Shown in pieces: positions 1 to 19,569 of a stretch of 64,000 nucleotides of DNA (the first letter of the stretch is position 1; every line of letters starts with the position of its first letter). The position numbers were made by a program, and so were the translations under genes. Under the pieces are notes generated by a model. The model ran no database searches and was not told the origin of the DNA. It saw only the letters and a program-made list of their open reading frames with translations. This DNA is from Paraspadella gotoi (Eukaryota; Animalia; Chaetognatha), in the NCBI GenBank assembly GCA_051294375.1, contig CM119267.1, positions 7,668,683-7,732,682 of the forward strand, given 5' to 3'.

Positions 1-167
1 TCGGAGAAGGGGACAAGGGAAATCAATTGTTCTTTTTCCCGGTTGACGTGGCCTCTGCCGCGACACGTGGGGCAGTCGACGTAGACCGTTTCTTCGTTTT
101 CCTCGGGATACCGATCGAACTCGTGGTAGCTCCCGAGGCCCTCTAACTGATAGAGGCTGCTCCCCAT
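1..167 (-). CDS. TMEM106B: TMEM106 family lysosomal type II membrane protein, 5' part only (continues beyond the window edge)
   Basis: Manual translation from ATG 167 gives MGSSLYQLEGLGSYHEFDRYPEENEETVYVDCPTCRGRGHVNREKEQLISLVPFS. This carries the TMEM106 signature CPTCxGxGxI/V...QLxxLxPxS. Not in the ORF track. A pyrimidine tract plus AG (TTTTCGAAG) directly precedes the ATG. Confidence 0.85.
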   Translation of the reverse strand, partial: MGSSLYQLEGLGSYHEFDRYPEENEETVYVDCPTCRGRGHVNREKEQLISLVPFS

Positions 168-550
168 CTTCGAAAACAAGAAATTGAAAAAAGATAAAAT
201 TTGCGAGTTATAATATAGAATTTTTTTATTTTTTTTAACAAAGAATAGAAAAAATATTTCATAAATTGTAAGGGCACTTTTCTAAATAACGTTGAGTAAG
301 GCAATAAGTAAGGCATTGTTCAATAAGGAATGACAATTACTAATGAGTAACGTGAAAAAAAAGTTGAATTGAGTATAGCGTAATAAACAGTTGGGTCAGT
401 GTCGCATTGTCCATCTCCATTTTCATTGCTATGATATGTACATTGTACAATTGGCAAATGTTCTGTAGGTATAACTTATATGTGTAAAGTTCAGTTTATA
501 CAGAAAGCATATTCAAAGTGCTCCGACTCGTTTGCGTTTTTGGCGATATT

Positions 551-2000
551 TCAGTTCTTCTTGTTTCCTTTTTTCAAACTCCTAACCCGAGTCTTGCTAG
601 AAACATCGGAGTCGGAAAAGTCGACGTCCGATTCGCGCGATAGGACGATGATGTCGTCGTCGCTCGAAGCGACCAAGTTGTCGTCGTCTTGGTGTCCATT
701 GATCGGTTTGACATTTCGTTTGCGAAAGGATTTGGACGAGACGCTTTCCTCGTCGACGTTGTAATTTTCGTTGGCGTCGGGAACCAATTCTCCGTCGCTG
801 TCAAGAGAAGCCATCCCGGTCTTCTTTTCTCCATTTTTGATCCGATTTCTCCCCTCCGCCGACGACTTGGACCTTCCAGGCGACTTGGCTCGGGTTCGAC
901 TCGGTTTAGTCTTTTCTCTCTTCTCGCGTGGAGGGTGAGGGACGAGGAATTCTCCCTCGGGCAGAGGGGAAGATCTAGGCACGGATCTTGCGGCCACCGA
1001 CTTGGGAAGCGTCTCCCCGGCCGAATCAATTTCTGCTGCGGCGCGATTCTTAGTCGATCCTCTCTCGCCTCGGTCGAGCTCGTCCTCCGACTCCCACAGC
1101 CGACGTTTCCCGTCCGTCCGCGGGACGGAACTCTTCTCTGGTCTTGAGTCGACGCTGGCCGAGCGATGAGAGGTCGGGCTGTCGTCGTTCCGCCCTCGAG
1201 AAAGCTGGAACCCGCCGTCGCCTCGGAGTCTTTCGTCGCCGGCCGAGTCAAGTCGCTCGTTTTCGCCGAAAGCGTTCACGGCGGGCGGCGGGGATTCAAT
1301 TGCGGCAGTGGCGGACTGACGTAAATGATCGAACATTGCTGGCCCCTTGAGAGCGGCGACGAAGGCCAGGGATGTAATGTAAGTTAGGGTCTGAGCACCG
1401 AGTGATAGGACGAATTTGTAGCCCTGAAAATAATTGGGAATAGTAGTTTGCGTTTTTATTACCGAATGAATTTATATCAGGTTTAAATTGTAATTTAGAA
1501 TGTATTTTTTTCCGATATTATGAATTCGAGATTTTACCAGAAAATTTATAAATGTACTTATGTAGCCAATGCTGATCGCTTAATATAAGTACCTGTTGCT
1601 TAGCTTTTGAAATAATGTCATCTATTTCGTTTTCTTTCTCCGTCAGCATCGGATGAACGAATCGGCGATACAAAATTGACGAGCCTTTTTGACATGATTT
1701 AATTACATAAATGCCAAGCATACACAGTCCAAGTTACAGATGAAACTTACCCTTCGTGTATGGCGACAACAGCCAGATGAGAAAGATGATCTTGACTTCG
1801 TGATAAAAAGGCATCCACCAAGAGACGAGGATATCGGCAAAAGTCTCGGCGAAAAGAAAGAGCGCGAACACGATCCAGTACATCATCCATTTCACGTAGT
1901 CCTTGACGCTCTTTGTCTTGACAGCTTTGTAGCTTTGGTAGGCGGGAAAAAGCGTCCCGAAAAAAAGGATCACGAGGCGGGAGATCAATGAGGAGATCAT
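551..2000 (-). CDS. REEP1-4 subfamily ER-shaping protein (TB2/DP1/HVA22 domain), about 404 aa, 3 exons: 2000-1751, 1684-1593, 1423-551
   Basis: [28 protein letters not shown]...[12 protein letters not shown]...WLLSPYTKG|[11 protein letters not shown]...[12 protein letters not shown]|GYKF matches REEP1-4. Introns are GT-AG and phase-consistent. Exon 3 runs in frame into the low-complexity 551..1336 ORF, which forms a long C-terminal tail. Confidence 0.88.
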
Positions 2001-2603
2001 AATGTGAGTGAGAGGGACGGAAGTCACAGTTTTAAATGTATTTTTTTGAAACTTAATGGAGCTCTAACATATTCTGAAAATATAAACAAAGTCTTGGCAA
2101 TGATGTAAAACATCATTAGTAAAAATAATGCCACCAGAAATAACAAGTAAGAATAGGGAAGGCGAAATATTGAGCAAAATATATTAGTAGTAATAGTAGA
2201 CTCCGTGATTAAAAAAAAAAAAACCATAAAAAATACTGTGTAAATTGATTAAAAAATTACAGAAAAATAAAACATGAAATACATAACAATTAAAATATTT
2301 AACATTTACGTACATACCAACGAAGTACACAAGATCACAACTTTTTCACGTCAAATAACTAAATAGCGGGAAACGTTTCCAAAAAAGCTTAAAAGCATGA
2401 GGATCGTCGCAATAGTATAAAAAAAAACTGAACCCATAACAAACTCAAAAAATCAAATTTAATACAGGAAAACAACATAATCATAACAAACTAGGCTTAA
2501 TATATAAAAAAATAGCTTAGAAGTATAAAAACAAAAGGAATAATATTCAATGGACAAACAGATACAAAAAATTCAAGATATAGAGTCATAAAAAAACTAA
2601 GGA

Positions 2604-5104
2604 TCAGCTGATAAAACGCAGCTCTTCTTCCATAAAACTGGTCATTTTGAATTTTTGCACTTTGCCTGTGACTGTCATTGGAAATTCTTCCACCATTTTG
2701 ATATATTTGGGGATTTTGAAATGCGAAATTTTTCCTCGAGAAAACGAAACGACTTCTTCCGATGTCAAATCGGCGCCTGGCGCGAGCCGGATCCAGGCGC
2801 ACACCTGCTCTCCGAGGCGAGGATCAGAAAATCCGAAGACGCAGACATCGGCGATCGCAGGATGCGTGTGGAGGAATTGCTCAATTTCCGCTGAAAAAAA
2901 AAATCATATTGTATGCAAAAAATACAACTTTAGCATGATTATTGGTTGATAATAAATCAAGTTAATCATCAGATAACACTTTCCTATGCCACAAGAAAAA
3001 AACCAGGAAAAAATTAGTCCACAAGTAAATGCTAAACCTGGATAAATATTTTCGCCGCCCCTGATGATTATATCTGAGGATCTCCCGACGACACTGCAGA
3101 ATCCTTCTTCATCCATGACGCCGACATCGCCAGTTTTGTACCACTTGTCGGCGCTCAAAACATCGCGCGTCTTGATTTCTTCGCCCCAGTATCCGAGCAT
3201 GGTGTTGTAACCTCTAAAAAAGAAAATATTAAATACCTCATAATAAACGTGACGTTTGCATCCAATAACTAGAGCAACAAAAACCCACCTCACGCAAATT
3301 TCTCCCTCTTGACCAATAGGAAGGATCCGGCCTGACTCGTCGGCGATTTTTATCTCTACGTGAGGCATGGCGGATCCGACCGTAGCCACTCGAATGGCCA
3401 ACGAATCTGTTGTACGATGGGACGTCGCCAGCGGACTCAACTCGGTAGCGCTAAAAGATGATTGTTTGGCTTGTGATGTAACAGGAACTTCGACCGATTA
3501 ATTCAATTGAAAAACAGAATGACCCAGAGATCGAAGTAGTTTTAATACTGACCCATAGCCAATAATAACTTCCGACATATTAAGTTCCGTCACGATTCGC
3601 TTCATCAATTCCATCGGACACGGGGAGCCAGCCATGATTCCAGTTCTCATGGTGCTCACGTCTACTTCCTTCAGCCGAGGATGATTCAAAATGTCTACGA
3701 ACATAGTAGGAGTCCCATAGAGAGCGGTGCATCTGGAAAGAAGCGATAGAGGATCAACGTTGGTGTAAGAACTACTTTTACTTACTACTCTTACCTTTCT
3801 TTCCCGATGGCGTCCAACACGCTACCGGCGTCAAATGAATACGAGGGAAAGACGCAGGTCGATCCATGTCCCAGAGTCATTAGACTAGCAAGCACCATGC
3901 CGAAGCAATGATAAAGCGGGACCGGGACGCAAAGGACGCCGCGCTGCTGATCAAATCCCAGTCGTTCCGACGTTGAAAGAGCGCAGTTGAGGATGTTGAA
4001 GTGAGACAGCGTTGCGCCCTTGGGCGAGCCAGTCGTGCCGGAAGTAAACTGAATGTTAATGGGTTCGTCGGGCGCCACGAGTTTCGTCTTTGCTTCCATG
4101 TCAGAAAAGGATTCCGACGAGGAGGCGTCGAAAACATCTTGGAGAGATAAGGCACCGGGAAAAACGGTTCCACTTCCTTCCGGATCGGTGAAGATGACGT
4201 GAGATAAAAGTGGAAGTTCTTGGGAGGTCGTCACCCCCGCGGGAGACGAAGGTAAACTGGGCAATATCTCGCATAGAATCGCATAGTAGTTCTGTTACAT
4301 GGAAAATAAATGCTGATAAACGCTCAAGGTTGGAAAGTAAAACAATTCTTACCCACCTGTGTTTTGAATGTAGGCGTGGCCAAAATTCCCTTGCATCCAA
4401 CTTTTTTAAGGGCAAACTTTAATTCGCCCGTTTGATACGCGGGATTAATATTGACTTGAATAATGCCGACCTTGGCAGTGGCGAACTGAGCTAAGATCCA
4501 AGCTTCGCAATTCGGTGCCCAAACTCCTAATCGATCGCCGGGTTTAAAACCTGTTATCGAAAACATATATGAAAATTAATTAACTGTAGTATTGACAATC
4601 AGGAATCACTAATTAATAAAATTAACAAACGGTGTATAACAAAAGAAGAAAACAATTTTTGCTGCACAGAGATGGAAAAAAAAAATTACGATTTTTTTTT
4701 CTGATTGAAAATGTTTCAAAATGAAAAACCGGTTTTTTTTTTTCAAATTACATTCTTTAACGATCTTGAACTTGACAATGATATTTCTCGTTAGCAAAAC
4801 CTCTCCTTCACCTTTTTCAAAACTCACCCAAAGCGATTAGACCCGAAGCGAGTCGCTCGGCTTTCTGTTTGAGATCGGCGAAGTTAAGCCGAATCCCCTG
4901 ATGAGGGAAGACGTGAGACTCTCGATCCGGAAATCTTTCGGCCAAACGATCGAGACGCTGGCCAATGGTCTCCGCAGTGAGCGGAACCGTCGAAGTCCCG
5001 TGGGTGTATGACTGAGTGTAGCGCCATCTTCTAGGAACTGTCGACGTTGCGACACGTCTCGGAACGGTTTGAAATTTGAAAGGCAGGCCACGGATAAAAA
5101 ACAT
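2604..5104 (-). CDS. ACSF2: Medium-chain acyl-CoA synthetase family member 2, mitochondrial, about 590 aa, 7 exons: 5104-4828, 4550-4357, 4291-3795, 3732-3553, 3450-3289, 3213-3038, 2890-2604
   Basis: AMP-binding motif INIQFTSGTTGSPKGATLSH, plus PVPLYHCFG, YGATELSP, WYKTGD, IIRGGENIYPAEIE and PMTVTGKVQKF. The N-terminus is Arg-rich and lacks acidic residues, like a transit peptide. All six GT-AG junctions are phase-consistent. Confidence 0.9.
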
Positions 5105-5406
5105 ATCAATTTTTTTCCTGGGGTTTTTTTTTCCCCGTTTTTTTTTCAGCGTTTAAGTAAGATATGCAGTGTAGAGAGCTGGCGGTGGAGAAACGATGTT
5201 TGCCGCATACGGGCAATCATCGCATCACCATCTTGTCTGCAATTAAAATTTTGAATCACAAGAGGGCAATAGCTTATTAAATAAACATGATTATTCACCG
5301 AACGACGAAACAAGCGCAACAATAAATTGATACTAATTAATTTTGAATTCAAAAGCAATTTGAATAATTCAAAAATTTCAAGTAATAACGATTGGTAACT
5401 TTCTTA

Positions 5407-6048
5407 TCAATAAGCGCTTTTCGCCTCCAGCGCATCCATCTGCTGCAGCAAAGACGCCGCTGCGAACCTCAACTGCTGAAACTGCTCCTGTCCGACTCCG
5501 AAGTGTTTCGTCTCTCCATCATTGAGCGTCGCTTCGAATTGGACCCTAGGTTCCAAGACGCGAGAAACGGAAGAATCTGAGATAGTGACATCGAGACGCC
5601 AACTCAAGTCAGTCAACGTTGGGTAACCCGCGCGAAGACCCATTGTAGGGGTCCCTTCTAACCGCCCGGCGCCGAAAGCGGCTGCGCGAAGGTCCTCGAT
5701 TTTATCGGCTTCCACGTTTAACTCTGCGAGATCCTCCTTGAAAGTTTCGGCTTTCAGTTTACTCTGACGCCTCGCCGTTCTCAAAAGGACATCCAAACCG
5801 GCGAATACGACGATCACATCGTTCAGAGGTGTGTGATCGTTGGTCAAGTCGTACAGGGATTCGGGACCGACAAGGTCCAATCCTTCCAGTTGGTCGACAA
5901 CAACTTCAAGAATTCTCCGGAATACGTCTTTTTCCATTGAAGGTAACACTTTTAAAAGCTCCTTCACTTCGAGCGGAATTTTAGGACCGAGAAAAAGCGG
6001 CCTTTCGACTTTAGCCGAAGGTAAAGAAACTCCGGTAAATGTCGACAT
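5407..6048 (-). CDS. COMMD5: COMM domain-containing protein 5, 213 aa, single exon
   Basis: C-terminal COMM domain LSWRLDVTISDSSVSRVLEP...FQQLRFAAASLLQQMDALE. The N-terminal FLGPKIPLEVKELLKVL...FRRIL resembles COMMD5. Confidence 0.85.
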   Translation of the reverse strand: MSTFTGVSLPSAKVERPLFLGPKIPLEVKELLKVLPSMEKDVFRRILEVVVDQLEGLDLVGPESLYDLTNDHTPLNDVIVVFAGLDVLLRTARRQSKLKAETFKEDLAELNVEADKIEDLRAAAFGAGRLEGTPTMGLRAGYPTLTDLSWRLDVTISDSSVSRVLEPRVQFEATLNDGETKHFGVGQEQFQQLRFAAASLLQQMDALEAKSAY

Positions 6049-6319
6049 TTTTTTGGGGGGTCATACGTTGAGTAATATATTTCCTTTTTGTTTCCTGACG
6101 AAAATAATGTTAAATTTAATAAATATTATGACTGTTCATTGAAATAATATTATGACTGTTCAATAAAAACTTAGTGTCTTGGCGTAGACTTAGGACGGTG
6201 CTACGTTTTCTATGGGTACATACTACATACATAGAGAAAAACTAATTATAATTTAATATTAAGTCGGGATTTGAACATGAAACATTTAGAGCAGAAGATA
6301 GAAATTTCACCCTCGCAAT

Positions 6320-8557
6320 TTAGTTTTTCCTGGAGCTCACGGAATCGTCAACTAGCTTCTCGATTATATTCAAAACGTTGATTGCGGCGTCGGGGATTTT
6401 GGTGCCAGGGCCGAATACGGCGCTGCAGCCGTTGGCGTAAAGAAACTCGTAGTCTTGGGGAGGAATCACCCCTCCGGCGACGACAACGATGTCCGGTCGA
6501 CCCATCGCCTTTAACTCTTTCACCAACTCAGGAATGAGAGCCTTGTGGCCGGCGGCGAGAGAGCTCACGCCCACCACGTGAACGTCGGCGTCGACGGCTT
6601 GCTGAGCGGCTTCGCGAGGGGTCGCGAAGAGAGGCCCGATGTCTACGTCGAAACCCATGTCGGCGAATCCCGTGGCGATGACCTTACCGCCGCGATCGTG
6701 ACCGTCCTGACCGACTTTAGCCACCAGAATACGCGGTCGTCGTCCTTCATCCTTCAAGAATCGTTCAGATCTCGCCAGCACAGCCTCGATATCTTTCGTA
6801 TCCCCATAGCTGTTCTTGTAGGCGCCGCTGACGAGTCTGTCGTGCGCCGAGTGGCGTCCCCAAATTTTTTCAAGAGCGTCGGATATTTGACCCACGGTAC
6901 ATCTGTCTCGCGACGCCTGGATGGCTAATTCGAGGAGGTTGCCCTCTCCGGTTTTGGCGCAGGCCGTCAACGCGTCCAACGCGGCGGCCACTTTGGCCGG
7001 ATCCTGCTTGGCCCGAGTGGAGGCGATATGCGCCAGTTGCGACTCGAAAACAGTCTTGTTGTCAATCATCAAAACGTCGACTATCTCTTCCTCGGCCAAT
7101 TTGTACTTGTTGACCCCGACGATGGTTTCAAGGCCGGAATCGATCCTCGCTTGCCGTTTGGCTGCGCATTCCTCGATCTTCATCTTCGGCCAGCCGGTAG
7201 CGACGGCGGCCGCCATCCCGCCCATTTTCTCCGTTTCGTCGATGACCTCCATCGCCGCTTTGTAGACGTCGTTAGTCAGAGATTCCATCATAAATGACCC
7301 GGCCCAAGGGTCGGCCACGTGAACAATGCCGGATTCCTCTTGGAGAATAATCTGAGTGTTTCTGGCGATTCGTGCGCTTTTGGGCGTCGGCAATCCCAAG
7401 GCTTCGTCAAACGAGTTAGTGTGGAGAGATTGGGTCCCCCCGAATACGGAGGCCATGGCCTCGATGGTGGTGCGAATTATGTTGTTGTAGGGATCCTGTT
7501 CGGTGAGCGACCATCCCGACGTTTGAGAATGGGCTCTCAACATCGTGGATTTCGAATTTTTGGGATTAAAGTTTTTTTTCATCAAATCTGCCCATAGTCG
7601 CCTTCCCGCCCTCATTTTGGCAATCTCCATGTAAAAGTTCATGCCGATGCCCCAGAAAAAGGAGAGACGGGGCGCGAATTTGTCGATGTCAAGGCCAGCC
7701 TTGATTCCCGTTCGACAGTACTCCAAACCGTCGGCCAAAGTAAAGGCCAATTCCAAAATGGCGTCGGCGCCTGCCTCCTGCATGTGGTAACCAGAGATGG
7801 AGATAGAGTTAAACTTGGGCATGTGTTTGGAAGTGTAAGCGAAGATGTCCGCTATTATGCGCATGGAATGTTGGGGCGGATAAATGTATGTGTTCCGCAC
7901 CATGAACTCTTTAAGGATATCATTCTGAATGGTGCCGGCTAGGTCGCCCAGTTTTGCGCCCTGCTCCTCGGCGGCAACGATGTACATGGCCATGACTGGC
8001 AACACGGCGCCGTTCATAGTCATCGATGTGGATATTTTGTCCAGCGGAATCCCATCGAAAAGAATTTTCATGTCTTCCACAGAATCGATGGCGACACCCG
8101 CCATGCCGACGTCGCCCTTGACCCTGGGATTGTCCGAATCGTAGCCCCTGTGGGTGGCAAGGTCGAAGGCCACGCTCAGTCCCTGCTGCCCCGCCTTAAT
8201 GTTGTCTCTATAAAAACGATTGCTCTCTTCGACGGTAGAAAACCCAGCGTATTGTCGAATCGTCCAGGGTCTTTGTGTGTACATCGTCGGGTAGGGGCCT
8301 CTGGTGAAAGGGAACTTGCCAGGCAACTCGTCCTTTTCGATTCCGTCCTTTTTGGTGTAAACCGGTTTGATGTCGATTCCTTCGGGAGTATGCCAGACTA
8401 GCTTCTCGGCGTCCTTCCCTTTCAGCGCTTTGGTCGCCATGGCGCTCCATTCTGCATTTAGAGGAACGGCCGCCTTGAGTCGACTGATCGAAGCGAAATG
8501 TCGAGAAAACGAGCCGCCAATCCCATTTCCTTTGGACAACAAGTTTCGTGTGGCCAT
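6320..8557 (-). CDS. MMUT: Methylmalonyl-CoA mutase, mitochondrial (adenosylcobalamin-dependent), 745 aa, intronless
   Basis: [28 protein letters not shown] and [11 protein letters not shown], plus the B12-binding motifs DGHDRGGK and [10 protein letters not shown]-terminal transit-peptide-like extension; one uninterrupted ORF. Confidence 0.97.
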
Positions 8558-8583
8558 TTTTTATTCGCCCTAAAAATGTAAGA

Positions 8584-8675
8584 AAACCGACGCAAACTTG
8601 GTTAAAAGGCATCCGCAGTAAGACTTTCACAGAGAAATTGCATCGCACTGCTTCATGACAAATTAGGCACGGTTT
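8584..8675 (-). promoter_or_regulatory. Type II SECIS element in the SEPHS2 3' UTR
   Basis: Minus-strand RNA: helix I 5' arm AAACCGUGCCUAAUUUG, then UC-A-UGAA, helix II GCAGUGCGAU, GC-AA, mini-stem UUUC(UCUGU)GAAA, GUCUUACUGC, GGAU, and helix I 3' arm CAAGUUUGCGUCGGUUU. It has the AUGA/GA quartet, a 10-bp helix II with one mismatch and the apical AA, and lies about 280 nt downstream of the stop of a gene with an in-frame TGA. Confidence 0.85.
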
Positions 8676-8957
8676 AAAAAAATAATTTCAAATAATACAA
8701 AAGGGTTTTAATTTTATATACTTTATAAACCGAAAACCGAAAATTAAAAATACTTGATATTCAACAAGTTTCTTGGCCTGGGGTTTTTGTTAATTCCACA
8801 TTTAGCGCGAACATTAAAAAATTACACCGAATACCTCAAGGTATAAAGTAAAGTTCGGAATGTTCATGAAAACAACAATTTTAAATGATACAAATGCAAA
8901 GACCTTTCCCAGCTTTCAGAAAATTCCAAAATGATCAAAGGCAACTTCAAACGTTCC

Positions 8958-11162
8958 TTACCACAACTTCCCCTCAGTGTCTTTCACGGGCACCTCGAAT
9001 ATCTCTGGCGACTCGACGATCACAGCATTTCCATCTCCCGGCTCCACGTGGCCCACGATCCACGCGGGATAGCCTTCCGTTCTTTCTATCTCTTCGCAGA
9101 ACTCCGAAGCAGCTTCCTTCGCAAGGCACATCAAGAGGCCGCCGCTAGTCTCAGCCGAAGTCCCTCGCAAAAGACCGAATCCCACGCCACAGGCTTTGTT
9201 GACGGCAACCATCTTGGCGATGACGGGAAAACTATGGATAACGAACGACACTTGACTTTTTTGAACTTTGGCCATGTTGGAGGCGTGACCGAAAATGCCG
9301 TAGCCGGTCACGTCGGTCGCGCAGTGTGCTCCGTATTTGTGCATTAGAATGGCTCCGGTACGGTTTAATCGAGCCATAGAATCCGTGGCTCTCTTGAAGG
9401 CAAGAACCTGAAAATGAATGAATACAACAAAAAAATTTATACACACTGTAACAAGCCCTGTTTGGTTACTTTTACTTTCGCCGACTGGGGTTAGGGTTAA
9501 AGATAATTTAAGGGTGGTTTAGGGTTAAGGGTGTTTTAGGGTTAGGGGTAGTTAGGGTAATATAGGAGTCTACGTCGTTCTTAGAGATCGAGGAAGACTT
9601 TTTAAATGGAGATTTTCGTTCAAATCTGACTACCAAACAATATAAACGCTCCTGGTAAAAATTCGGGTAAAATATCGATATAAAAACACTTGATTCCGAT
9701 CCTGTTGTATCTGAAGGGCTCGCATTTTTTTCTCTTGTCAAATCATCAAATCTTGATATCAAACAAACCAGAACAAATAGACTGCTTCTGGACGGAAAAA
9801 TTTTCTATCTCTGATTTTATATAGAAATGAAAGGGATTTTTTTCCTTAAAAACGATATAAACGTGACTGAGGTATGTTCCTGTTCAAACAATGACGTCTA
9901 ATTTTGGAATCCTTTAGCAAAGTGTCTGAAGGCTCTCAAAATTTATCTTTACATTTTATTTGGTTATTTTGATATGATACGATCCTGGAAAGTGAATTAG
10001 TCCATTTTGGTGAAATTTTTATTTAAAGTAAAAGTAAAAGAGGAGCTAACGATCGGAATTCTAAGAGTTTTCAACCGGGAGTCAGATTCGGGAAAAATCT
10101 TCTATGGCGAAAATCTTCCAAAGAAGGGGTTGATTTTCCGAAGATTTTGGTTAATATTTTCTATATTTATGGTCGGATTTTTTGGAAACTTAATATTAAC
10201 AATATTGCCATCATTCTACTTGGCCGGTATAAGAATATATTGAAAAAACCTCGGGCTTTTTTCATCAGAGCTTAGTCTACGGTAATATTTAAAAAAAATT
10301 TTTTTAAAAAATAAGTATTTTTAAATGATTTTTAAAAATCGCCATAACCGCGGTCGGCGAAAGTAAAATTTAGCTATATATTTCTTTATCATTCTGCGCG
10401 CTCATGACATAGTTTAAGTTTAAAAATATTTGGTTGTTGGTCCTGACGCACCGTTTCCGCTTCTGAGATGACATCTTTGACCTTAAGCCATCTTTCCTTC
10501 TTCTGATCCATCCACTGATGCACGTTGACGGCGATCTGCGTTCCAATCGGTTTCGTCAAGACCAAAACGTCACCGACGCACGCGCCGTCCGGACGAATAA
10601 ATTCAGAGTCGGCGCAGACGGAGCTGGCGGCGCCACCGATCATTAACCACGGGTTGTTGACGATTTGTCCCCCGCGGACGGAACATTCGGCCAGAGCTGC
10701 GCAAGCGCGAAATCCCGTTAGCATCTGAGAAACAACAACGTCCCTTTCCACTTCAGAGAGTTCAGGTGGAACGCCAGATATAAGAGAGACGTTGTCGCAA
10801 TTGACGACGCCCATAGCGTACAAGTCTGACAAAACGTTGGCACAGGCGATGCGACCCTGCATGTAAGGATCTTCGACTAGAGGATAAAAAAAGTCGGTGG
10901 TTTGCACAAGAGACAGATTTCCGTGACGAAGGGGAGTCACGCAGCAGTCGACTCCGACGCCGACGGTCGGAGGAGCTCGAGGGGCCTCGACGGAGTCGCC
11001 GCTGCCGGAGTCGCTCTTCGAGCTCTGGTTCATTCCCTCCAGGAGCTTGAGTAGAAGCGCCTGGGGGATCTTGCACCCTCATCCTTTCAGCGCGGCTAGT
11101 TTTGTGAGGCGAAAGTCCGGATCAAGCCCGTAGGCGGCAGGTTCAAAGGATGCTCGATCCAT
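8958..11162 (-). CDS. SEPHS2: Selenophosphate synthetase 2, a selenoprotein (Sec at codon 28, TGA 11081-11079), about 386 aa, 2 exons: 11162-10452, 9407-8958
   Basis: Manual translation from ATG 11162 gives [43 protein letters not shown], in frame with [44 protein letters not shown] and ETSGGLL. One phase-0 GT-AG intron. SECIS present downstream. Confidence 0.95.
9470..10368. mobile_element. Non-autonomous element with terminal inverted repeats and degenerate TTAGGG-like repeats, in the SEPHS2 intron
   Basis: TTTTACTTTCGCCGAC (9470-9485) and its exact reverse complement GTCGGCGAAAGTAAAA (10353-10368), extending imperfectly to about 28 bp. Internal blocks recur at about 60540-61000. No credible ORF. 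Confidence 0.75.
11034..11068 (-). promoter_or_regulatory. Candidate Sec redefinition element (SRE) stem-loop within the SEPHS2 CDS
   Basis: UCCC-CCAGG-C-GCUU-(CUACUC)-AAGC-U-CCUGG-A-GGGA forms a hairpin of about 13 bp that begins 10 nt 3' of the Sec UGA. Confidence 0.65.
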
Positions 11163-11575
11163 TTCTATGTCTAGTAGCAGAGAGCTTTGACCTATATAAA
11201 ATTCAAAATATTCCCAAAGATTTAGTTAATACGTCGAAATTAGGGTAAAAAGAGACATTCGCAAGAAAAATCTTTTTTTTTCATATTTAGACATTAGTTT
11301 AGTTTTGGCTTTTTTAATGTCATAGTTGAATTTTTTTAAATCTTTCAGAAGCGTAAAAAGCTACTAACTACTGACTTTTTAAAAATTTTATCACAATCAA
11401 AATACTTTGTAAATACACCGGCACTCATAATATAATCCTATTTAAACAATCATTAACTAGTTGAATTAAAAAATTCATGATTTCTTCAATCAATAAATTG
11501 TCAACAAAAAAATTTCACCAACAAAAATAAAAAAACTTAATGATACGAGTTTTGGTTGGCCCTAAACAAATAAAC

Positions 11576-13920
11576 TTAGTTGACCGAGTCGGAACTGCAA
11601 TCGATCATAACTTTGACGGCGCCACCTTTTCCAGTTCTCGCCGTTTCAAACGCCTGCAACGTCTCTTCAAGAACAAAGCGATGGGTCACCAAAGGCTTTA
11701 CGTTAACTTTCCCTGAAACAAATATTTTTAATTCCTTGTGAAAATTTTAACCTAATCATTCAATAATCAAAAAAATAATAAGTGTGTAGTGGTAGTATTT
11801 CATACCCCACTACTCGTCCGAGAATCAGCAGCACCTATGGCGCCAGAGGTAGCACGAGCTCCTCCCAACCCAAAGGACTCGGGTTCGCGCCCTGCTGATT
11901 CACACAAGTAAAAGCGGGATGGGGCGTCTAACCCACCTGTACCTGTAGTGTCGGACTACAGCCCGATCCAAAGTTTGGGACCTTGTGTGCAACGGACAGT
12001 AAACTGCTCAGTGAGCATCGTGCTCACGGCATCGTCTTCCACATTGGATCACGTCGGGCTTACCAATGTGAAAGACGATGCCGTGAGCAGTTTACCGTCT
12101 GTTGCACACAAGGTCCCGAGCTTTAGATCGGGCTGTAGTCCGACACTACAGGTGGGTTAGACGCCCCGTCCCGGTTTTACTTGTGTGAATCAGCAGGGCG
12201 CGAACCCGAGTCCTTTGGGTTGGGAGGAGCTCATGCTACCTCCGGCGCCATAGGTGCTGCTGATTTTCGGACGAATAGTGGGGTATGAAATACTACCACT
12301 ACAAGTAATTCATAATTCCACATTATCCAATTAATAAGTTCCTTTACCAGATGCAACAAGCTGAAGAGCGTCGCCGTAACAGTTGGCGTATCTGAAAATC
12401 CCCCTGATGTCTACCTCGCGCCATTGAGAATTTAAAACAGGAAATGACATGTTCGGAGACCCCATACCAACCAGCACAACGGTGCCTGCATATTAAAAAA
12501 TTCTTCAGTAAACAAACGGTTAAAAAAATCAGAATCAAACGCCATCAAAGACGTCGCGAATCGAGCAAACCTGCGCTTTGAGTCGCGAAAACGGCTGTTC
12601 GAAGACTAGATTCCACTCCACTACATTCGATGGCTTTGGAAAATTTTGATCCCAGCAATGATTCCGCCTGTTTTTTTAAAAAAGCAGTCGACAAGATTCG
12701 TTTCTGTTTAATACTTAATATGGTTAAAAACCTCTTTCGCTGTTTCCTCCGGAGTTGACGTCACGAGCAAAATCATGTCAGCGCCAAGAGACTTCGCGAA
12801 TTCCAGCCGGGATGCAGATATATCTATGGCAACAAAAAAAATTGATACAGATTAGGTAATTTAGATTTATCCCTTTATTTAATGCAAGTTTAACTATTGA
12901 ACTACTAAATTTTGAAACAGGAAAGATCTACGATAATTGCACCGAAGTTTAATCCTGCAGCCCACACTTATAAAGCAAAGACATACTGCTAAACCACTGA
13001 GAAGAGATAGAGCGAAAAGAAAAGAGGCAAGACGGTAATTAGATACGACTCGTACGTATATACTAATTAAAAAAAAATGCTCATACCGGTAATGCAGACT
13101 TGGACTGCTCCCATCGCCTTTGCCACTAGCATGTTCACTAAGCCTAAACGTTACGTAAAAAAAATTTGTCAACGGATTTTACCTAACAGCTTTGTATTAA
13201 ATTTTAATACCAATCGGTCCCGCGCCACAAATAAAAACTGTATCGCCAACGGTGATGGCAGCGCGCTTGCAAGCGTGAACGGCGACGCTGAGGGGCTCTA
13301 GCAAAGCCCCTTCTTCTAAGGAGACATGGTCAGGCAGTTTAAAGCAGAAGTCGGCGGGGTGGACAAAAAACCGCGCCAAGGTGCCGTGTACAGGAGGCGT
13401 GGCGCAAAATTCGACCTTGGGACAAAGATTGTATCGACCGCGTTTGCACAAGTCGCACAAGCGGCACGGTACACCTGGCTCGATTGCCACACGATCACCT
13501 GCAAGATAAAACATAACTAGTTAAATAGTAAACGTTCATTTGTCAATCGTCAATGATAATTAAAAGTAGTTTAATAATTACCAACTTTCAATTGGTCGAC
13601 CCCTTCTCCAACTTCAGCAACAACGCCTGATGATTCGTGACCCAAAACCATTGGCTCTTTAACAACATAATCACCAATGCAGCCAGCAACCAGGAAATGA
13701 ACATCAGAGCCGCAGATGCCCACCTTTTAGGAATGAAAATTATTTTGAAAAAAAAAAATTTGTAAGCTTCGAATCTCCTAACTTCAATTCAAAAGTTTTC
13801 ACCAGTTTTTACCTTTTGCATTGCCAAAAGAACTTCATTTTTTCCAGGTTTTGGTTTCGGTCTTTGGAGCAGTTGCAGGTCGTTCTTTGCCAAAAGTACT
13901 GCAGATAAATTGTCATCCAT
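11576..13920 (-). CDS. SORD: Sorbitol dehydrogenase (zinc-dependent MDR family), about 352 aa, 8 exons: 13920-13813, 13723-13582, 13498-13211, 13143-13087, 12823-12732, 12667-12571, 12485-12348, 11712-11576
   Basis: [82 protein letters not shown] and KPLVTHRF. All junctions are phase-consistent GT-AG. Confidence 0.95.
11785..12303. mobile_element. Near-perfect palindromic (foldback/MITE-like) element of about 520 bp; each arm carries a tRNA-like Pol III promoter; in the last SORD intron
   Basis: Starts TGTAGTGGTAGTATTTCATACCCC and ends GGGGTATGAAATACTACCACTACA. Arms are complementary up to a loop of about 15 nt near 12048-12062. A-box-like TGGCGCCAGAGG (11838-11849) and B-box-like GGTTCGCGCCC (11882-11892) are mirrored in the right arm. 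Confidence 0.85.
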
Positions 13921-14288
13921 TTTTTTACAAAGTGAACTACAGACTAGTGACTACTGCTGAAAAAATAAAAATGTAACAAAGATAAGTACGTATCGAGTAA
14001 TGAAGCCGACACAAAACCTCTTCCAAGAAGTTTTTTTCGCGGCAAACAAGTGTAGAACTAGTTATCGTACTATAGCACAGAAAACCGTTAACAATATAAT
14101 TTCGAATCTAAAAGAAGTATAGTAAATAATTAGAAATTTAATGTCACACCTTGATTAAAAAATAAATTTAACAACCAACAATGCTTCCAATGAAATTTTC
14201 ATAATTACGTAGGTCCTTTGGTTTTTTTCACCCACCCAGTTTCCACCATCCATGAATGACAATTCTATATCTCACATTCTGATTAAAG

Positions 14289-15293
14289 TCAGAGGCCTTT
14301 GTTGAAAACAACAACGTCGTCGTCTGGTCGAAGTCGTTTTAGATCAGCCTTTAAATCATGCTCCAGCCTTTCCTTGTCCAACTCGGCGAACTGAGGGAAA
14401 ATCGCGATGGCCGTCGGAAGTCCCAATCCGAAAGCGAGGATCGTCACCACACCAAGCGCAGGCAAATGGAGTCGGGGCCGCCGGGCAAAGGCGGGCACTC
14501 GTTCTAGCCCCATCATCACCAACGGTGGCAAGACAAAGCAGGGTACAGGGAGCAGCGCTCGAGAGATAGCCGTCTCTTGCAGGGCTTTTTTGGCCGCCAC
14601 CCGCGATTTTCCCAGGGTCAAACCGTCGCGGGTCCTGACTAGAATACCCTCTTTCAACTCGGAAAAGCGCATCAGAATGCAGTTAGAAACGGAGGCGGCG
14701 GCGACGGCGGGGAAAGGGACGAAACGCTGGACGATAAGACGCGTTGCTGGGGAAAAGGAAGACGACCTTTTTAACAAAACTGACAGGCCGACGGCGATAC
14801 CGCAAGCCGACGATATAGCGCTCGCGTACCCGACAACAAAACGCGAAGTTGGAGTCGGTTGTGACGCGTTACGATTACAATAGTTAACGCAGGCATTGTG
14901 GCTCTGATTTAGCCACTGCCAGAAGACCATACGGGTCAGAGACTGAGTCGGAATGAGCAGTCCGAAGACGATGGGGCTTCCAAATGGGACGAAACCAGAC
15001 ATTCGAAATGGCATAGGGATTTTCTCGCCAGTGTCCGGGTGAATGATCGCTTGTTTGATCTTTTGCGCACTCCATAACTCGTCGTCAGTTACTCCCTCTG
15101 GTTTGGCGCCGTGAAATTGAAACTCGTCCAACAATGCTATAGCCGAGTCAAGATCCTTCCGAGTCGCGAAGAGAGTCCGAGGATCAACAACGTCGAAAAA
15201 GTGAAGAAGGCGTCCGCGAAACGTACTTTGGTCATATTTTGAAGAACCAAGACGAAATGTTGAAGTAGATAATATTGAGGTAGTTCCCGACAT
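14289..15293 (-). CDS. SFXN5: Sideroflexin-5, mitochondrial inner-membrane carrier, 334 aa, intronless CDS
   Basis: YDQSTFRGRLLHFFDVVDPRTLF, LWSAQKIKQAIIHPDTGEKIPMPFRMSGF, FWQWLNQSHNACVNYCNRNA, QRFVPFPAVA and C-terminal FNKGL. These residues are typical of the SFXN5 subfamily. Confidence 0.93.
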   Translation of the reverse strand: MSGTTSILSTSTFRLGSSKYDQSTFRGRLLHFFDVVDPRTLFATRKDLDSAIALLDEFQFHGAKPEGVTDDELWSAQKIKQAIIHPDTGEKIPMPFRMSGFVPFGSPIVFGLLIPTQSLTRMVFWQWLNQSHNACVNYCNRNASQPTPTSRFVVGYASAISSACGIAVGLSVLLKRSSSFSPATRLIVQRFVPFPAVAAASVSNCILMRFSELKEGILVRTRDGLTLGKSRVAAKKALQETAISRALLPVPCFVLPPLVMMGLERVPAFARRPRLHLPALGVVTILAFGLGLPTAIAIFPQFAELDKERLEHDLKADLKRLRPDDDVVVFNKGL

Positions 15294-15692
15294 GGAGACG
15301 ATAGTTGTAAATTGTTGGGGAAATGATTTTTAACACGCTGATATAAAAAAAAAAATTTTTGGAGATCATTGGAAGACTTGGAAGATGATTACCTAGTTGC
15401 ATAGACGAGGCACCGAAAGATGGGTTTGTCAGCTATTGCATTAAACTTGGACCATAGCAAGTTATGGTTAATTACGGATCGCACGTGAATCTCACACTAA
15501 AAGGGTTATCGTCCGTTTCCTGGTCTGTTTAATAAGCACCTTACAATCCTCAAACACTTAGTCATTCAGGCGAGGGAATTATTTATCCACGTCAAGGATA
15601 TAAGGCCTTACGCTGTGGCGATGACAGCCGAGTTAAACAGATATTAATCTTTAAAGCATATAAATTTTTCATAATACAGAACTGTTTAAATG

Positions 15693-16682
15693 TCATAATT
15701 TATCGTTCCTCTGTTTCGAACGAAGCCAAAACCCCAGTGCACATTTCGTGCCACTGCTAACACGTTCCACCTCAATTCCCTCTTTGTCGGGAGCGACGTT
15801 AAGAAAAACTGACGTCGCAATTTCCCTCTTCCTTTGAATCGGCGGCGAATCGGGACTCATTTCTATGATTTCAATTTTTTCGGCCTCACGAGCATCCTCG
15901 AAAAAGTAGGATTTCCCGCGAAATATTTCTACGCCCTCCGAGGTGTCGACGATGGACGCGGCCAGGCGTTGGTCCACCCAAGCGGCGGCGTCTACTTCTT
16001 CTTTGTCCAGTCGCATGGTCGACTCTGCTTCATCAGGCGTCTTATCTAACCGGAGGTGAAGATAAACGACAATGTGGTGGCGACGAGGCTGTCCTCGGCT
16101 CAGCGTGGGCGGGTACGTGCTCTCCCAAAGGCCGAGACAGGAGACAGAAAGTAAAGAAGTCTTCGACAGGGCCAGCCCTGTCTCTTCGTACAGTTCACGC
16201 ATTCCAGCGTCGAGGGCGGACTCCCCCGTTTCCACGTGACCCCCGGGCGGGACCCAAACACTCGGAAAGGTGCGCATATGTTTGGCTCTCCGCGTCAGGA
16301 GTACTTTTCCCGCAGACTCTACTAAGACGGCGACGCCGGGGGCCACTCCTCGTTCGATTACGTCGGCGGGTAAATTCTCTCGCTGTTCTTCGCTCAGGTT
16401 CGTGATTGGGCAAAAGGAAGGCCGGACGAGAAGGCATGGGGCCGAGCCGAAATCATTTCGGTCCAGAGTGGGCGCCGAGAAATCATTTATGTTCGCCGGG
16501 ACGATTATCATCCGTCGACCGGCGAGGCGCCAACGGACCAATGCGGAATTTTTGTCGGAGGCGTCAGCTCCACGGAGGCGATCCACGACGGAACTGTGGA
16601 AAGGCGCTGGGAAATGGCAGGCGTCGTCGTCGGTGTCCGAAAGGTGAACCAAAACACGTTCGTAGTCGTTTTTTTGCGTCAT
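15693..16682 (-). CDS. NUDT17: Nudix hydrolase 17, intronless CDS; start is probably ATG 16682, with an alternative in-frame ATG at 16730
   Basis: Nudix box GGHVETGESALDAGMRELYEETGL, plus NUDT17-type motifs VLLTRRA, WVPPG, LGLWESTYPP, HHIVVYL and ERVSSGTKCAL. An acceptor (TTCGTCAG, G at 16713) lies between the two ATGs. Confidence 0.88.
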   Translation of the reverse strand: MTQKNDYERVLVHLSDTDDDACHFPAPFHSSVVDRLRGADASDKNSALVRWRLAGRRMIIVPANINDFSAPTLDRNDFGSAPCLLVRPSFCPITNLSEEQRENLPADVIERGVAPGVAVLVESAGKVLLTRRAKHMRTFPSVWVPPGGHVETGESALDAGMRELYEETGLALSKTSLLSVSCLGLWESTYPPTLSRGQPRRHHIVVYLHLRLDKTPDEAESTMRLDKEEVDAAAWVDQRLAASIVDTSEGVEIFRGKSYFFEDAREAEKIEIIEMSPDSPPIQRKREIATSVFLNVAPDKEGIEVERVSSGTKCALGFWLRSKQRNDKL

Positions 16683-19569
16683 TCTGTGAATGGAGATCCA
16701 GCGGGTGCAGAACTGACGAAGCACGAGCATTTAAGAATAGTAACGACAAAAATGTAAAAGGTGAAGACTGTCGGATGAACAATTTAGACAATTTCTGCAC
16801 AGAATATTTTTTTTCTGTTTTCAAACGTATATATCTAGTTTATGCAATTGCAAGCAATTACTGCAAAGAATAATATAACCCTTAATAAAAAAACAACAAA
16901 CTCTTAATAAGGCTCTTAGTCTTGAGTGCGACACCTGTTCCTCCATTCGAATGACGATTGTTCTTCCTGTTGTCCTGATGAGGAATCATCAGGGAGAAAA
17001 ATAAAAAAAAGAGAAATTAGGGAAAATCTAAATATTCCAAATCAGTCCGAATTTTAGAGATCTTAACAAATTCGAAGAGCAAAATTAAAATTGGTACATA
17101 ACATAGAATAACTAGACTAATAGACAACGAAAACGACGGAGAAAGTCATAGAAAAACTCAGAAATAAATTCTTCATTCCATTGTTCATTTGTTCATTTTT
17201 AATCCACTGAGTTTTTGTCGGTTTTTTCTTCGTCGGAAGAGTTAATGGATTCCTTTATTTTATAAAATTAGACAAAAGATCTTTATCCGATGAATATTCA
17301 TGGCGTTATTTAGTATAAATTTTAAAACATTTGCTTTATGTAATTTAGTTTCAATATATTTTTTTCATAAATGAACGAGAAAAATTAAAGTTTATTTGTT
17401 GAGTTGATGATACGCCGAGGGTTTTAAAAATAATTCAACAAATTTTGTTATAAAATTTTATTTCGTATTTCGTACTTAATTCTTTAGTATACTAATATCG
17501 CGGCAAAACTCGCTAAAACTTGATAATACTACGTGAAAAAGTATCGTTTTTTATCCTATACAGTATACTTTTGCTTCTCCCTCATTTCTTTCTCTCTCCT
17601 TTTTTTCATGAGTAGAGGCTTTCTTCATGATTTCGTCATGAGTCTCATGATTTCCACGCTTTCCTCCAAGTCGCCTTCCCTTTTCCTTTCTTTAAATCCA
17701 TTTCCTTCTCTTTTTCCTTGGAGCAAAAAGCCTTTTTCTCTACCATCTACCACAGAGGTAACGAATCTTTCATTGACGTCATTTCGTCTATTCCCTCCTG
17801 TACAGTTGTACCCGCTTGTGTTAAGTATATCCAAAGAGAACACACTGATGACGGAATCCACGAATAATCCGAAATTTTTTTTTTTATAATCGCTATAGAT
17901 TTATTCATTATAGTTTAAGTAAAATTCTCAAATGTTGTTAATAGAGGAGCTTCAGTATCTTATAGATAATAACGTAAGAAATTCTGCTGTACATTTAGAA
18001 GATTTATGATGAAAAAAGCGCCGCTTGGGGCAACATAAAAAAAATTCAAGTTAAAAACATAGTCTATTTCATTGCGTCATGATTCGTGTGCTCCACGCAA
18101 AAATTTGTTCCGAAATATTTTTTATTTTCCACTGACATTCCGACTTTTGAAAATTGCAATCTGCCCAAACCCGCTAATGCTTAAAAACGGAAAACAGAAA
18201 TTAAAAAACGGAAAACGTTTCAATGAGATGGAAATTTTTGGCTCTTACATTTTCTTTCCGATTTAAAAATGATAGGTTAATGTATTATAAACTTCAAAAT
18301 TTTTTTAAGATGGAGCTATGGTATGCGTTGTTGCATTAAAACCATTTTTTCGTTAATCTCAAATCTTAAACACAACGAAACGAAAAGATACTATCGAACG
18401 ATGTGGTTTTCAAAAAGAAGAATAAAAAAATATATATTATTAAATATATATTATTATATTATTAAGATCATTTTATTTTTTATTTTTTGATAAATGCGGT
18501 TAACCTATTAAAATCGTTTAAATCGTTCAAATCCGAGAAAGACAAAGCAATTATAATGCAAAGCCAAAGGGAAACAAACATAAATAACGTTGTGTTGGAA
18601 TCGATACAAACTATAATCAATAAACATTATTTCCCACGGCGATATAAATAGCATCATCAACGGTCAACAGTGTTTCCGTTTTGGTTTTTTTCCGTCTTTT
18701 CCTTTTTCTTTTCGCTCCATTCCTCGCTGCCATTTTGTTTTTTCCCCGACTAGCGGTGCTCGTTGCCCCAAGAAGATCGTAAATTACCCGCCAAATTGGT
18801 CTCTCAATTTCAGAGTCAACTTTTAGTTTTACGCGTTGTGTAAAGCTGACAGCTGAAGTAGACAATATATAATTTATATGTACATGTAGCATTTTATCAC
18901 TTAAAGAATAATCAAAGAATTTATGACGTTGACGTAAGTACGCGTCCGAATTTAGTGTGTTGGCTTAGTTTATCTGTAAAGATTTTAAAAAGTTAGAGTA
19001 AAACCTGTAAAAAATTTGGAAAAAACAAATTACTTCAAGATTTTGTCGATGGGTAAAATTATTAACGATAAGTATTACACGATGTGTGTCTGAAGATCAA
19101 TTTGTTTATAATAATGATACTTGAAAGCTACCTCTCGAGGTTGTTTCCTTTGTTTAACTTATACAACAATATGGTAAATATACAGTGTATATTATTATTA
19201 CACTATATTGATTTTAAAAATATGTACAGAGTACGGTCACTCCTTCCCATCCTTCTCATTTCATGAAAGTTGAGTCTGTTCTGTTATGAGCATTCGACTA
19301 ACGAAAAAAAAATTGACATTTTACCTTATTACTTAATATTGTCATTATCTCAAAAATTCAAAGTGTAAACGCTTAACCTTGATTTTTCTCGAGTTATTTT
19401 CTATTTTATGTAGAGACACGTCTCTGGTTTAATCGTTTTCTCAGTCGCTTGAATCGTCGAACGTAAACAAACAAATGATCGGAATCGCTCGTAGTCGTCC
19501 AACTGTTATTAACTTTCATCGCCTACAATGAAGTAAACGCCGATTACCTCCTATTAACTAAAGTTCACA

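What the first reader, a model, noticed from the sequence alone, without database searches (positions are those of the whole stretch)
8555..8715. SEPHS2 SECIS abuts the MMUT splice acceptor, with poly(A) signals on both sides: a possible selenoprotein/B12-enzyme RNA-processing switch
Seen, in minus-strand order: ATTAAA (8712-8707), SECIS (8675-8584), the tract CTTACATTTTT, acceptor AG (8571-8570), AATAAA (8565-8560), MMUT ATG (8557). Known: Sec decoding needs the SECIS in the mature 3' UTR. Inference: a SECIS-containing SEPHS2 mRNA must either be cleaved inside the MMUT coding start, destroying MMUT from that precursor, or get its 3' end at the trans-splice site, as in C. elegans SL1-type operons. 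Use of the proximal ATTAAA would leave a normal spacer of about 120 nt and an intact MMUT mRNA but a SECIS-less SPS transcript. One precursor could thus have mutually exclusive outcomes linking selenophosphate supply to methylmalonyl-CoA mutase.
Basis: partly seen in the sequence, partly recalled or inferred. Interest (0 to 1): 0.85.

Follow-up and report, generated by a model that had tools for sequence, protein, structure and literature searches.

The report
Splice removes selenium signal between genes
In what is likely an arrow worm, one RNA data set shows the selenium-activating enzyme's transcript spliced straight into the next gene, which removes its stop codon and its predicted selenium-insertion hairpin; this would be the selenium-free form predicted as the origin of the enzyme's second function, but it may be only a splicing leak.

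Summary
All listed motifs are at the stated coordinates. The hairpin is a plausible type II SECIS of a UGA-containing SPS gene. It is the only pattern hit in the 3' UTR, and 8 of 20,000 shuffles match as well, but no Rfam SECIS model hits it. The poly(A) hexamers are chance-level, and the RNA contigs run through both.

Contigs of one RNA run fork at the SPS2 stop codon. One branch keeps the SECIS 3' UTR. The other splices from a GT donor overlapping the stop (8961) to the MMUT acceptor (8570). This deletes 392 nt holding the stop and the whole SECIS, and it gives no in-frame fusion.

The locus is a nine-gene same-strand cluster, likely a chaetognath operon. In such operons a 3' end abutting the next acceptor is known. 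The splice resembles SELENOS variant 1. It also matches the SECIS-lacking SPS isoform hypothesised by Mariotti 2015, and the UGA carries the readthrough hexamer and an SRE-like hairpin. Abundance, conservation and function of the splice are untested, and a leak is as likely as a regulated form. Nothing supports a selenium/B12 link.

The parts
10452..11162 (-). SPS2 (SEPHS2-like) coding exon 1
   Evidence: its 3' boundary is inferred from the GT donor, from protein homology and from 27 unplaced letters on X1 record 5
11073..11081 (-). In-frame TGA (codon 28, Sec position, in K-G-U-G-C-K) followed directly by the readthrough hexamer GGG-TGC
   Evidence: hexamer defined in PMC4561486 section 10
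11034..11068 (-). SRE-like hairpin starting 10 nt after the UGA
   Evidence: z -2.5 here, z -3.1 for the same hairpin in L001
9408..10451 (-). SPS2 intron 1 (1044 nt, GT..AG), holds a high-copy repeat
   Evidence: ends; inverted arms; depth in the thousands over the part laid
8958..9407 (-). SPS2 coding exon 2, ending in Leu-Trp-TAA (stop 8960-8958)
   Evidence: X1 record 5
8956..8961 (-). Splice donor GTAAGG made of the last base of the Trp codon, the stop codon and two further bases
   Evidence: X1 joint 8568/8961 with GT..AG ends; register fixed
8570..8961 (-). Optional 392-nt intron = SPS2 stop codon + whole 3' UTR + SECIS
8707..8712 (-). ATTAAA hexamer; no sign of use
   Evidence: chance level; X1 record 4 runs through it to 8591
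8584..8675 (-). Predicted type II SECIS (AUGA from 8656, AA 8639-8638, 3' GA 8613-8612)
   Evidence: no Rfam hit
8601..8605 (-). Branch-point candidate TTAAC (A 8602, 32 nt before the AG), lying in the internal loop of the SECIS
   Evidence: motif only; 3 of the 9 cis-intron acceptors checked as controls have such a motif within 50 nt
8570..8585 (-). Pyrimidine tract and acceptor AG (8571-8570) of MMUT; used in cis in X1, likely also the trans-splice site
8560..8565 (-). AATAAA inside the 12-nt MMUT leader; no sign of use
   Evidence: X1 record 3 runs through it
8458..8569 (-). 36-codon out-of-frame extension of the SPS reading frame on the spliced RNA, overlapping the MMUT start
   Evidence: computed
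6320..8557 (-). MMUT coding sequence, intronless, 745 aa
   Evidence: X1 record 3
1..16730 (-). Same-strand cluster: NUDIX hydrolase, sideroflexin, sorbitol-dehydrogenase-like, SPS2, MMUT, COMM-domain protein, acyl-CoA synthetase, REEP/DP1, TMEM106 (cut by the window end); stop-to-ATG gaps 271-603 nt

Best explanation
The predicted SECIS of an SPS2 gene lies inside an optional 392-nt intron: RNA contigs show one form that keeps it and one that splices from the SPS2 stop codon into the MMUT acceptor, in what is likely a trans-spliced chaetognath operon. SHOWN: both RNA forms, the GT..AG ends, loss of stop and SECIS, and no in-frame fusion. INFERRED: the 3' UTR runs almost up to the MMUT acceptor, as in other abutting operons, so SECIS and 3' splice signals share sequence. 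Three reactions then compete for one acceptor: 3' end formation near 8590-8570 (gives Sec-SPS2 mRNA), spliced-leader addition (gives translatable MMUT mRNA), and cis-splicing from the donor that the Trp-TAA end happens to spell. The cis-spliced RNA would insert no selenocysteine and would be a poor MMUT template (18 upstream AUGs). It most likely works as an unproductive side route that lowers both proteins, with at most low-level UGA readthrough to a 422-codon non-Sec SPS.
For: X1: nine GT..AG joints, so the run is spliced RNA. Record 5 (exon 2) forks at 8961 into record 4 (3' UTR to 8591) and record 3 (30 letters of exon 2, then 8568-5254 with no gap or mismatch). Only 2 letters fit both sides of the joint, which argues against template switching. 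Bin depths are fully explained by these records, so no contig covers 8569-8590; extended frame of 422 against 386 codons, MMUT ATG out of frame, 18 AUGs before it. Operon reading: nine same-strand genes, most with a T-rich AG 0-132 nt before the ATG. The window SPS groups with P0011 (SH-aLRT 100), whose contig L001 begins with the last 16 nt of chaetognath SL2.0 (Table 3 of PMC2481426). MMUT falls among spiralians. The same paper reports 3 bases between poly(A) site and next acceptor in a chaetognath operon.
Against: One run, one study, contigs only: the tool states that depth cannot rank parts of genes, so the share of the spliced form is unknown. No spliced leader and no poly(A) end was seen at this locus (13 of 88 loose ends were displayed). 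The SECIS contig leaves the genome after 8591 with 183 letters that lie nowhere in the laid stretch, which is unexplained. Rfam does not recognise the SECIS. L001 shows no SECIS in its ~650-nt 3' UTR by two scans, so no covariation test was possible. In flatworms cis-splicing is described as strongly prevented at operon-resolving acceptors (PMC12582326). The taxon rests on quick trees with long branches and on unnamed sequences.
Confidence: 0.55

Rival explanations
1. The cis-splice is a selected, possibly selenium-responsive SECIS-exclusion switch. One gene makes Sec-SPS2 from the SECIS form and an SPS1-type, non-Sec protein from the spliced form by UGA readthrough; SBP2 bound to the SECIS would mask the branch point.
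For: PMC4561486 (discussion passages) predicts such an isoform for unduplicated SPS2. The UGA has the GGG-UGC hexamer and an SRE-like hairpin. Contig depths 226 (exon 2), 116 (SECIS branch) and 131 (spliced branch) are compatible with a large spliced share. The only YTRAY motif within 50 nt of the AG lies in the SECIS internal loop. L001 also has GT at Trp-stop.
Against: Depths can equally come from coverage taper at a 3' end plus leader-spliced MMUT mRNA. The donor may be a by-product of the conserved Leu-Trp end (41 of 120 hits end so). The hexamer is scattered in ordinary SPS2 genes and is absent from L001. No relative with a tail after Leu-Trp was seen among the 96 new proteins checked or the 31 printed. 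A separate SPS1 paralogue could not be excluded, since no genome is held.
Confidence: 0.2
2. There is no trans-splicing here. MMUT simply borrows SPS2 exon 2, or its end, as a 5' untranslated exon from a shared or internal promoter, and the spliced RNA is the normal MMUT mRNA.
For: The cis-junction is the only 5' continuation of MMUT that survives in the X1 contigs, and no leader was displayed. The last ~65 nt of exon 2 hold no AUG.
Against: Record 5 spans all of exon 2 up to the exon 1 junction without a break. Exon 2 alone holds 7 AUGs. The cluster layout and the leader on L001 point to trans-splicing.
Confidence: 0.13
3. One reading: a choice between the proximal ATTAAA and the distal AATAAA makes SECIS-less SPS plus MMUT, or SECIS-containing SPS2 without MMUT, tying selenium supply to the B12 enzyme.
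For: Both hexamers exist. Exclusivity per molecule at abutting cistrons is plausible (PMC1488885). Short 3' branches can be clipped by assemblers (my knowledge), so minor use is not excluded.
Against: The hexamers are at chance level and contigs run through both. Most Ciona operon upstream cistrons lack the signal (16 of 18). The neighbours are functionally unrelated.
Confidence: 0.06
4. The junction is a library or assembly artefact, or a deletion allele, and the SECIS beside the acceptor is just ordinary tight gene packing.
For: Single run; the neighbouring contig carries 183 foreign letters, so chimeras may exist in this assembly.
Against: Exact GT..AG ends at a consensus donor and a strong T-rich acceptor, with 2-letter microhomology only.
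Confidence: 0.06

Closest known systems
Human SELENOS variant 1 (Bubenik et al. 2013, PMC3628699; passages read)
   Same: A donor next to the stop codon splices out the SECIS; SECIS-plus and SECIS-minus transcripts coexist (variant 1 is 5-16% there).
   Different: There the splice is within the gene's own 3' UTR, 8 nt after the stop, and Sec is penultimate. Here the donor overlaps and removes the stop, the acceptor belongs to the next gene, Sec is codon 28, and the gene is the selenophosphate synthetase itself.
SECIS-lacking SPS isoform hypothesis and insect SPS1-UGA (Mariotti et al. 2015, PMC4561486; section 10 and passages read; supplements not read)
   Same: UGA-containing SPS RNA without SECIS, with the GGG-UG[C/U] hexamer and a stem-loop at the UGA, made by alternative 3' exon use as they speculated.
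   Different: Their observed cases are separate genes (insect SPS1-UGA) or alternative 5' exons (Ciona SPS-Sec/SPS-Gly). A 3' splice into a neighbouring gene is not among the passages I read, and translation is not shown here.
Operons with abutting cistrons: Ciona (PMC1488885, section 17 and passages), Spadella RPS14-PCNA (PMC2481426, passages), C. elegans SL1-type (as cited there)
   Same: The upstream 3' end lies at or near the downstream acceptor, the branch point falls inside the upstream mRNA, and exclusivity per molecule is possible.
   Different: Here the shared stretch is a predicted SECIS, and a cis-splice uses the acceptor; leader addition at this site is not shown.
Cis/trans sharing of acceptor sites in flatworms (PMC12582326, passages)
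   Same: One acceptor can be used by both cis- and trans-splicing.
   Different: It is lowest at operon-internal acceptors there, and no selenoprotein element appears in the passages read.

Membership tests
Eukaryotic type II SECIS | AUGA...GA non-Watson-Crick core with ~10-bp helix II | tested here: met
   9 of 10 pairs above the core
Eukaryotic type II SECIS | Unpaired AA above helix II, apical mini-helix, and helix I | tested here: met
   the spacing rules are recalled SECISearch-type rules written into my script
Eukaryotic type II SECIS | In the 3' UTR of a gene with in-frame UGA at a Sec-homologous site | tested here: met
Eukaryotic type II SECIS | Match to Rfam SECIS covariance models | tested here: not met
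   no SECIS family at E up to 10
Eukaryotic type II SECIS | Conserved with covariation in relatives | tested here: inconclusive
   only one close 3' UTR (L001) obtained; no SECIS found in it
Eukaryotic type II SECIS | Binds SBP2 and supports Sec insertion | not testable with these tools
   needs a reporter assay
SELENOS-variant-1-type SECIS exclusion | Splice from a stop-proximal donor removes the SECIS | tested here: met
SELENOS-variant-1-type SECIS exclusion | SECIS-plus and SECIS-minus RNAs coexist | tested here: met
   records 3 and 4 of X1; one run only
SELENOS-variant-1-type SECIS exclusion | The spliced RNA fails to insert Sec | not testable with these tools
   inferred from loss of the element
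SL-resolved operon with abutting cistrons | Closely spaced same-strand genes with an acceptor before each start | tested here: met
   (motif level; an 8-site weight matrix was uninformative)
SL-resolved operon with abutting cistrons | Spliced leader on the downstream mRNA | tested here: inconclusive
   none displayed; leader seen only on the relative L001
SL-resolved operon with abutting cistrons | Upstream poly(A) site at or just before the acceptor | tested here: inconclusive
   contigs end or leave 1, 17 and 21 nt before three acceptors (169, 5254, 8591); contigs cannot show RNA ends
SPS1-UGA (non-Sec readthrough SPS) | UGA retained, SECIS absent | tested here: met
   true of the spliced RNA only, not of the gene
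SPS1-UGA (non-Sec readthrough SPS) | GGG-UG[C/U] hexamer after UGA | tested here: met
SPS1-UGA (non-Sec readthrough SPS) | [quoted passage not shown] | tested here: not met
   single-sequence folds give an SRE-like hairpin after the UGA, not the clover
SPS1-UGA (non-Sec readthrough SPS) | Translated through UGA and rescues SPS1 function | not testable with these tools
   needs ribosome profiling, proteomics or a rescue test

The most novel reading that the evidence does not exclude
A living instance of the predicted dual-function ancestral SPS gene. One unduplicated gene makes Sec-SPS2 and a non-Sec SPS1-type protein by splicing its SECIS out into the next operon gene. The branch point sits inside the SECIS, so SBP2 occupancy (selenium status) sets the splice choice and with it the supply of MMUT mRNA.
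Probability: 0.18. Interest if true: 0.82.

Novelty: new variant of a known kind. Interest (0 to 1): 0.55.

Why it matters
How the essential, selenium-independent SPS1 function arose from SPS2 several times in animals is an open question. Mariotti et al. proposed a SECIS-lacking isoform as the intermediate. This locus gives a concrete junction in an SPS gene that can be counted and perturbed. It also shows an operon boundary where a recoding element and the 3' splice signals of the next gene occupy the same bases. If the splice is a leak, it remains a small annotation lesson: SPS genes ending Trp-TAA-G spell a consensus donor and can be fused to their neighbour in gene models.

Tried and rejected
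No whole genome is held, so paralogues, SL RNA genes and other SECIS elements of this animal could not be searched.

Run search: no holder is on record as RNA; X1 is a guess by the tool, here supported by its GT..AG joints. X2 and X3 gave 5 and 1 short pieces, of no use.

Rfam: no SECIS hit in the window or in L001-L003; the listed weak hits are below their gathering scores and were set aside.

An acceptor weight matrix from 8 introns scored the RNA-proven MMUT acceptor at 0.4, so it was judged overfitted and dropped.

In-frame SPS-MMUT fusion: rejected by frame. None appears among the 120 listed MMUT hits or the 120 listed longer SPS hits.

Relatives' DNA: the viral scan was empty. The metagenome scan gave 10 loci, only L001 close, none reaching a neighbouring MMUT that I could see; I read L001 and L002 in full and did not inspect L004-L010.

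The leader motif in the window gave 1 match with 2 mismatches, at chance level.

The supplement search of PMC12460157 covered 3 files and found no gene names; its operon table may not be among them.

Literature searches that found no report of this arrangement: (listings only, apart from the papers named). PMC7668243 and PMC2777434 passages added nothing. Earlier scan findings: none for this place or sequence.

Full report
Observation. The minus strand reads, in order: SPS stop (8960-8958), ATTAAA (8712-8707), a hairpin (8675-8584), a T-rich tract, AG (8571-8570), AATAAA (8565-8560) and the MMUT ATG (8557). The upstream gene is a selenophosphate synthetase with an in-frame TGA at codon 28. The downstream gene is an intronless methylmalonyl-CoA mutase of 745 aa.

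The SECIS. The hairpin folds as a type II SECIS: helix I, internal loop, AUGA/GA core, helix II with 9 of 10 pairs, unpaired AA, apical mini-helix. My pattern scan, built on recalled SECISearch-type rules, finds it as the only minus-strand site at -5 kcal/mol or better in 64 kb. It fires in 284 of 20,000 shuffles of the UTR, and in 8 of 20,000 at this energy. Against it, Rfam's SECIS models give no hit at E up to 10, the folding energy is ordinary, and no covariation test was possible. I regard it as a likely SECIS, mainly because of where it lies.

The poly(A) hexamers. They are chance-level: 13,766 of 20,000 shuffles hold one, as do 7 of 8 gaps in the cluster. RNA contigs run through both.

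RNA evidence. One public run, X1, holds the locus. Laid on 1-10200 it shows nine joints with GT..AG ends, eight inside the REEP and acyl-CoA synthetase genes, so it is spliced RNA. Its four other joints lie in the repeat inside SPS intron 1. The ninth joins 8962 to 8569. The donor GTAAGG is spelled by the last base of the final Trp codon and the stop codon; the acceptor is the AG before MMUT. The 392-nt intron holds the stop, the 3' UTR and the whole SECIS. Record 5 (exon 2, depth 226) forks into record 4 (3' UTR to 8591, depth 116) and record 3 (spliced, through MMUT and the COMM-domain gene to 5254, depth 131). These records account exactly for the bin depths, so no contig covers 8569-8590. 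Limits: one run, contigs only, 13 of 88 loose ends and 15 of 435 pieces displayed. The tool warns that depth cannot rank parts of genes and that a contig across two genes shows no single transcript. From my knowledge of de Bruijn assemblers, short leader and poly(A) branches can be clipped, which would hide leader-spliced MMUT ends and leave even a minor cis-junction as the only continuation. The share of the spliced form therefore lies anywhere from a few percent to about half. Record 4 leaves the genome after 8591 with 183 letters that lie nowhere in the laid stretch. A GT stands there, so a second donor is possible, as is a chimera; this is unexplained.

What the spliced RNA encodes. The SPS frame runs 36 codons past its normal end (422 against 386 codons if the UGA is read through). 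The MMUT ATG is out of frame and has 18 AUGs before it. It is therefore no fusion protein and, by ordinary scanning rules, a poor MMUT template. Without a SECIS the default is termination at codon 28. The UGA is followed by GGG-UGC and by an SRE-like hairpin that is kept in the relative L001, which leaves room for non-Sec readthrough. The only YTRAY motif within 50 nt of the AG lies in the SECIS internal loop (A 8602). This is weak evidence, as only 3 of 9 control acceptors show the motif.

Context and organism. Nine genes lie on the minus strand with stop-to-ATG gaps of 271-603 nt, most with a T-rich AG shortly before the start. In a quick tree of the window protein and 49 of 120 SPS hits, it groups with nine unnamed sequences (SH-aLRT 100). 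One of them, P0011, comes from L001, which begins with the last 16 nt of chaetognath leader SL2.0 (Table 3 of PMC2481426). A quick tree with 32 of 120 MMUT hits places MMUT among spiralians with four unnamed sequences. The animal is thus likely a chaetognath. In Paraspadella about half of the genes are trans-spliced and 18% lie in operons (PMC12460157 passages). In a Spadella operon three bases separate the poly(A) site from the next acceptor. A SECIS near the end of a 3' UTR will then abut the next acceptor as a matter of ordinary architecture. No leader was seen at this locus itself.

Mechanism, ranked. (1) 0.55: three reactions compete for one acceptor, and the cis-splice is a real but most likely unproductive side route that removes the SECIS and uses up the MMUT acceptor. 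(2) 0.20: the splice is a selected SECIS-exclusion switch giving an SPS1-type product. (3) 0.13: no trans-splicing, and the spliced RNA is the normal MMUT mRNA. (5) 0.06: artefact. Shown steps: two RNA forms, splice ends, frame. Inferred steps: SECIS function, operon transcription, leader addition, position of the 3' end, fate of the spliced RNA.

Comparison with what is known. It works like human SELENOS variant 1, where a stop-proximal donor removes the SECIS (PMC3628699 passages). It differs in removing the stop and using another gene's acceptor. It matches the SECIS-lacking isoform that Mariotti et al. speculated as the source of SPS1 function (PMC4561486; supplements not read, and they may bear on novelty). 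It is not an SPS1-UGA gene, since the gene keeps its SECIS and no HRE clover was predicted. Exclusivity per molecule at abutting cistrons is discussed for Ciona, where member genes were not markedly exclusive in bulk (PMC1488885 section 17). Cis use of trans-splice acceptors is common in flatworms but lowest inside operons (PMC12582326 passages). Seven searches listed no paper on this arrangement; the library lacks most subscription papers.

Verdict. New variant of a known kind; interest 0.55, rising to about 0.8 if the spliced form is abundant, conserved and translated.

Noticed in passing
window 8591 (X1 record 4): The SECIS-bearing contig continues with 183 letters that lie nowhere in 1-10200. 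A GT at 8591-8590 could be a second donor, which would clip the base of SECIS helix I; a chimera is equally possible.
   Followed up: partly
window 5254-8568: MMUT and the COMM-domain gene are covered by one unbroken contig, intergenic gap included: overlapping UTRs or an unresolved dicistronic RNA.
   Followed up: no
window 11785-12303: A near-perfect ~520-nt fold-back (nested inverted arms of 157, 70 and 27 nt, 93-96% complementary) inside an intron of the sorbitol-dehydrogenase-like gene, probably a MITE-type insertion.
   Followed up: no
window 9470-10368: SPS intron 1 holds an element with 27-nt inverted ends and TAACCC-like runs near one end. X1 depth over the part laid is in the thousands with many variants, so it is a high-copy repeat.
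   Followed up: partly
L001 1-16 and 1217-1870: A leader-bearing, likely chaetognath SPS transcript with UGA and SRE-like hairpin but no SECIS found in ~650 nt of 3' UTR: truncated, non-canonical, or an SPS1-UGA-like gene.
   Followed up: partly
window 6320-8557, 14289-15293, 15693-16730: MMUT, sideroflexin and the NUDIX gene are intronless, while neighbours in the same cluster have several short introns.
   Followed up: no
window 168-169: The REEP contig ends at 169, one base before the acceptor AG end that directly precedes the TMEM106 ATG: another boundary with no spacer.
   Followed up: no
window 36442-37047: A DUF229 exon on the minus strand, in a gene-poor, (AG)n-rich part of the window.
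   Followed up: no
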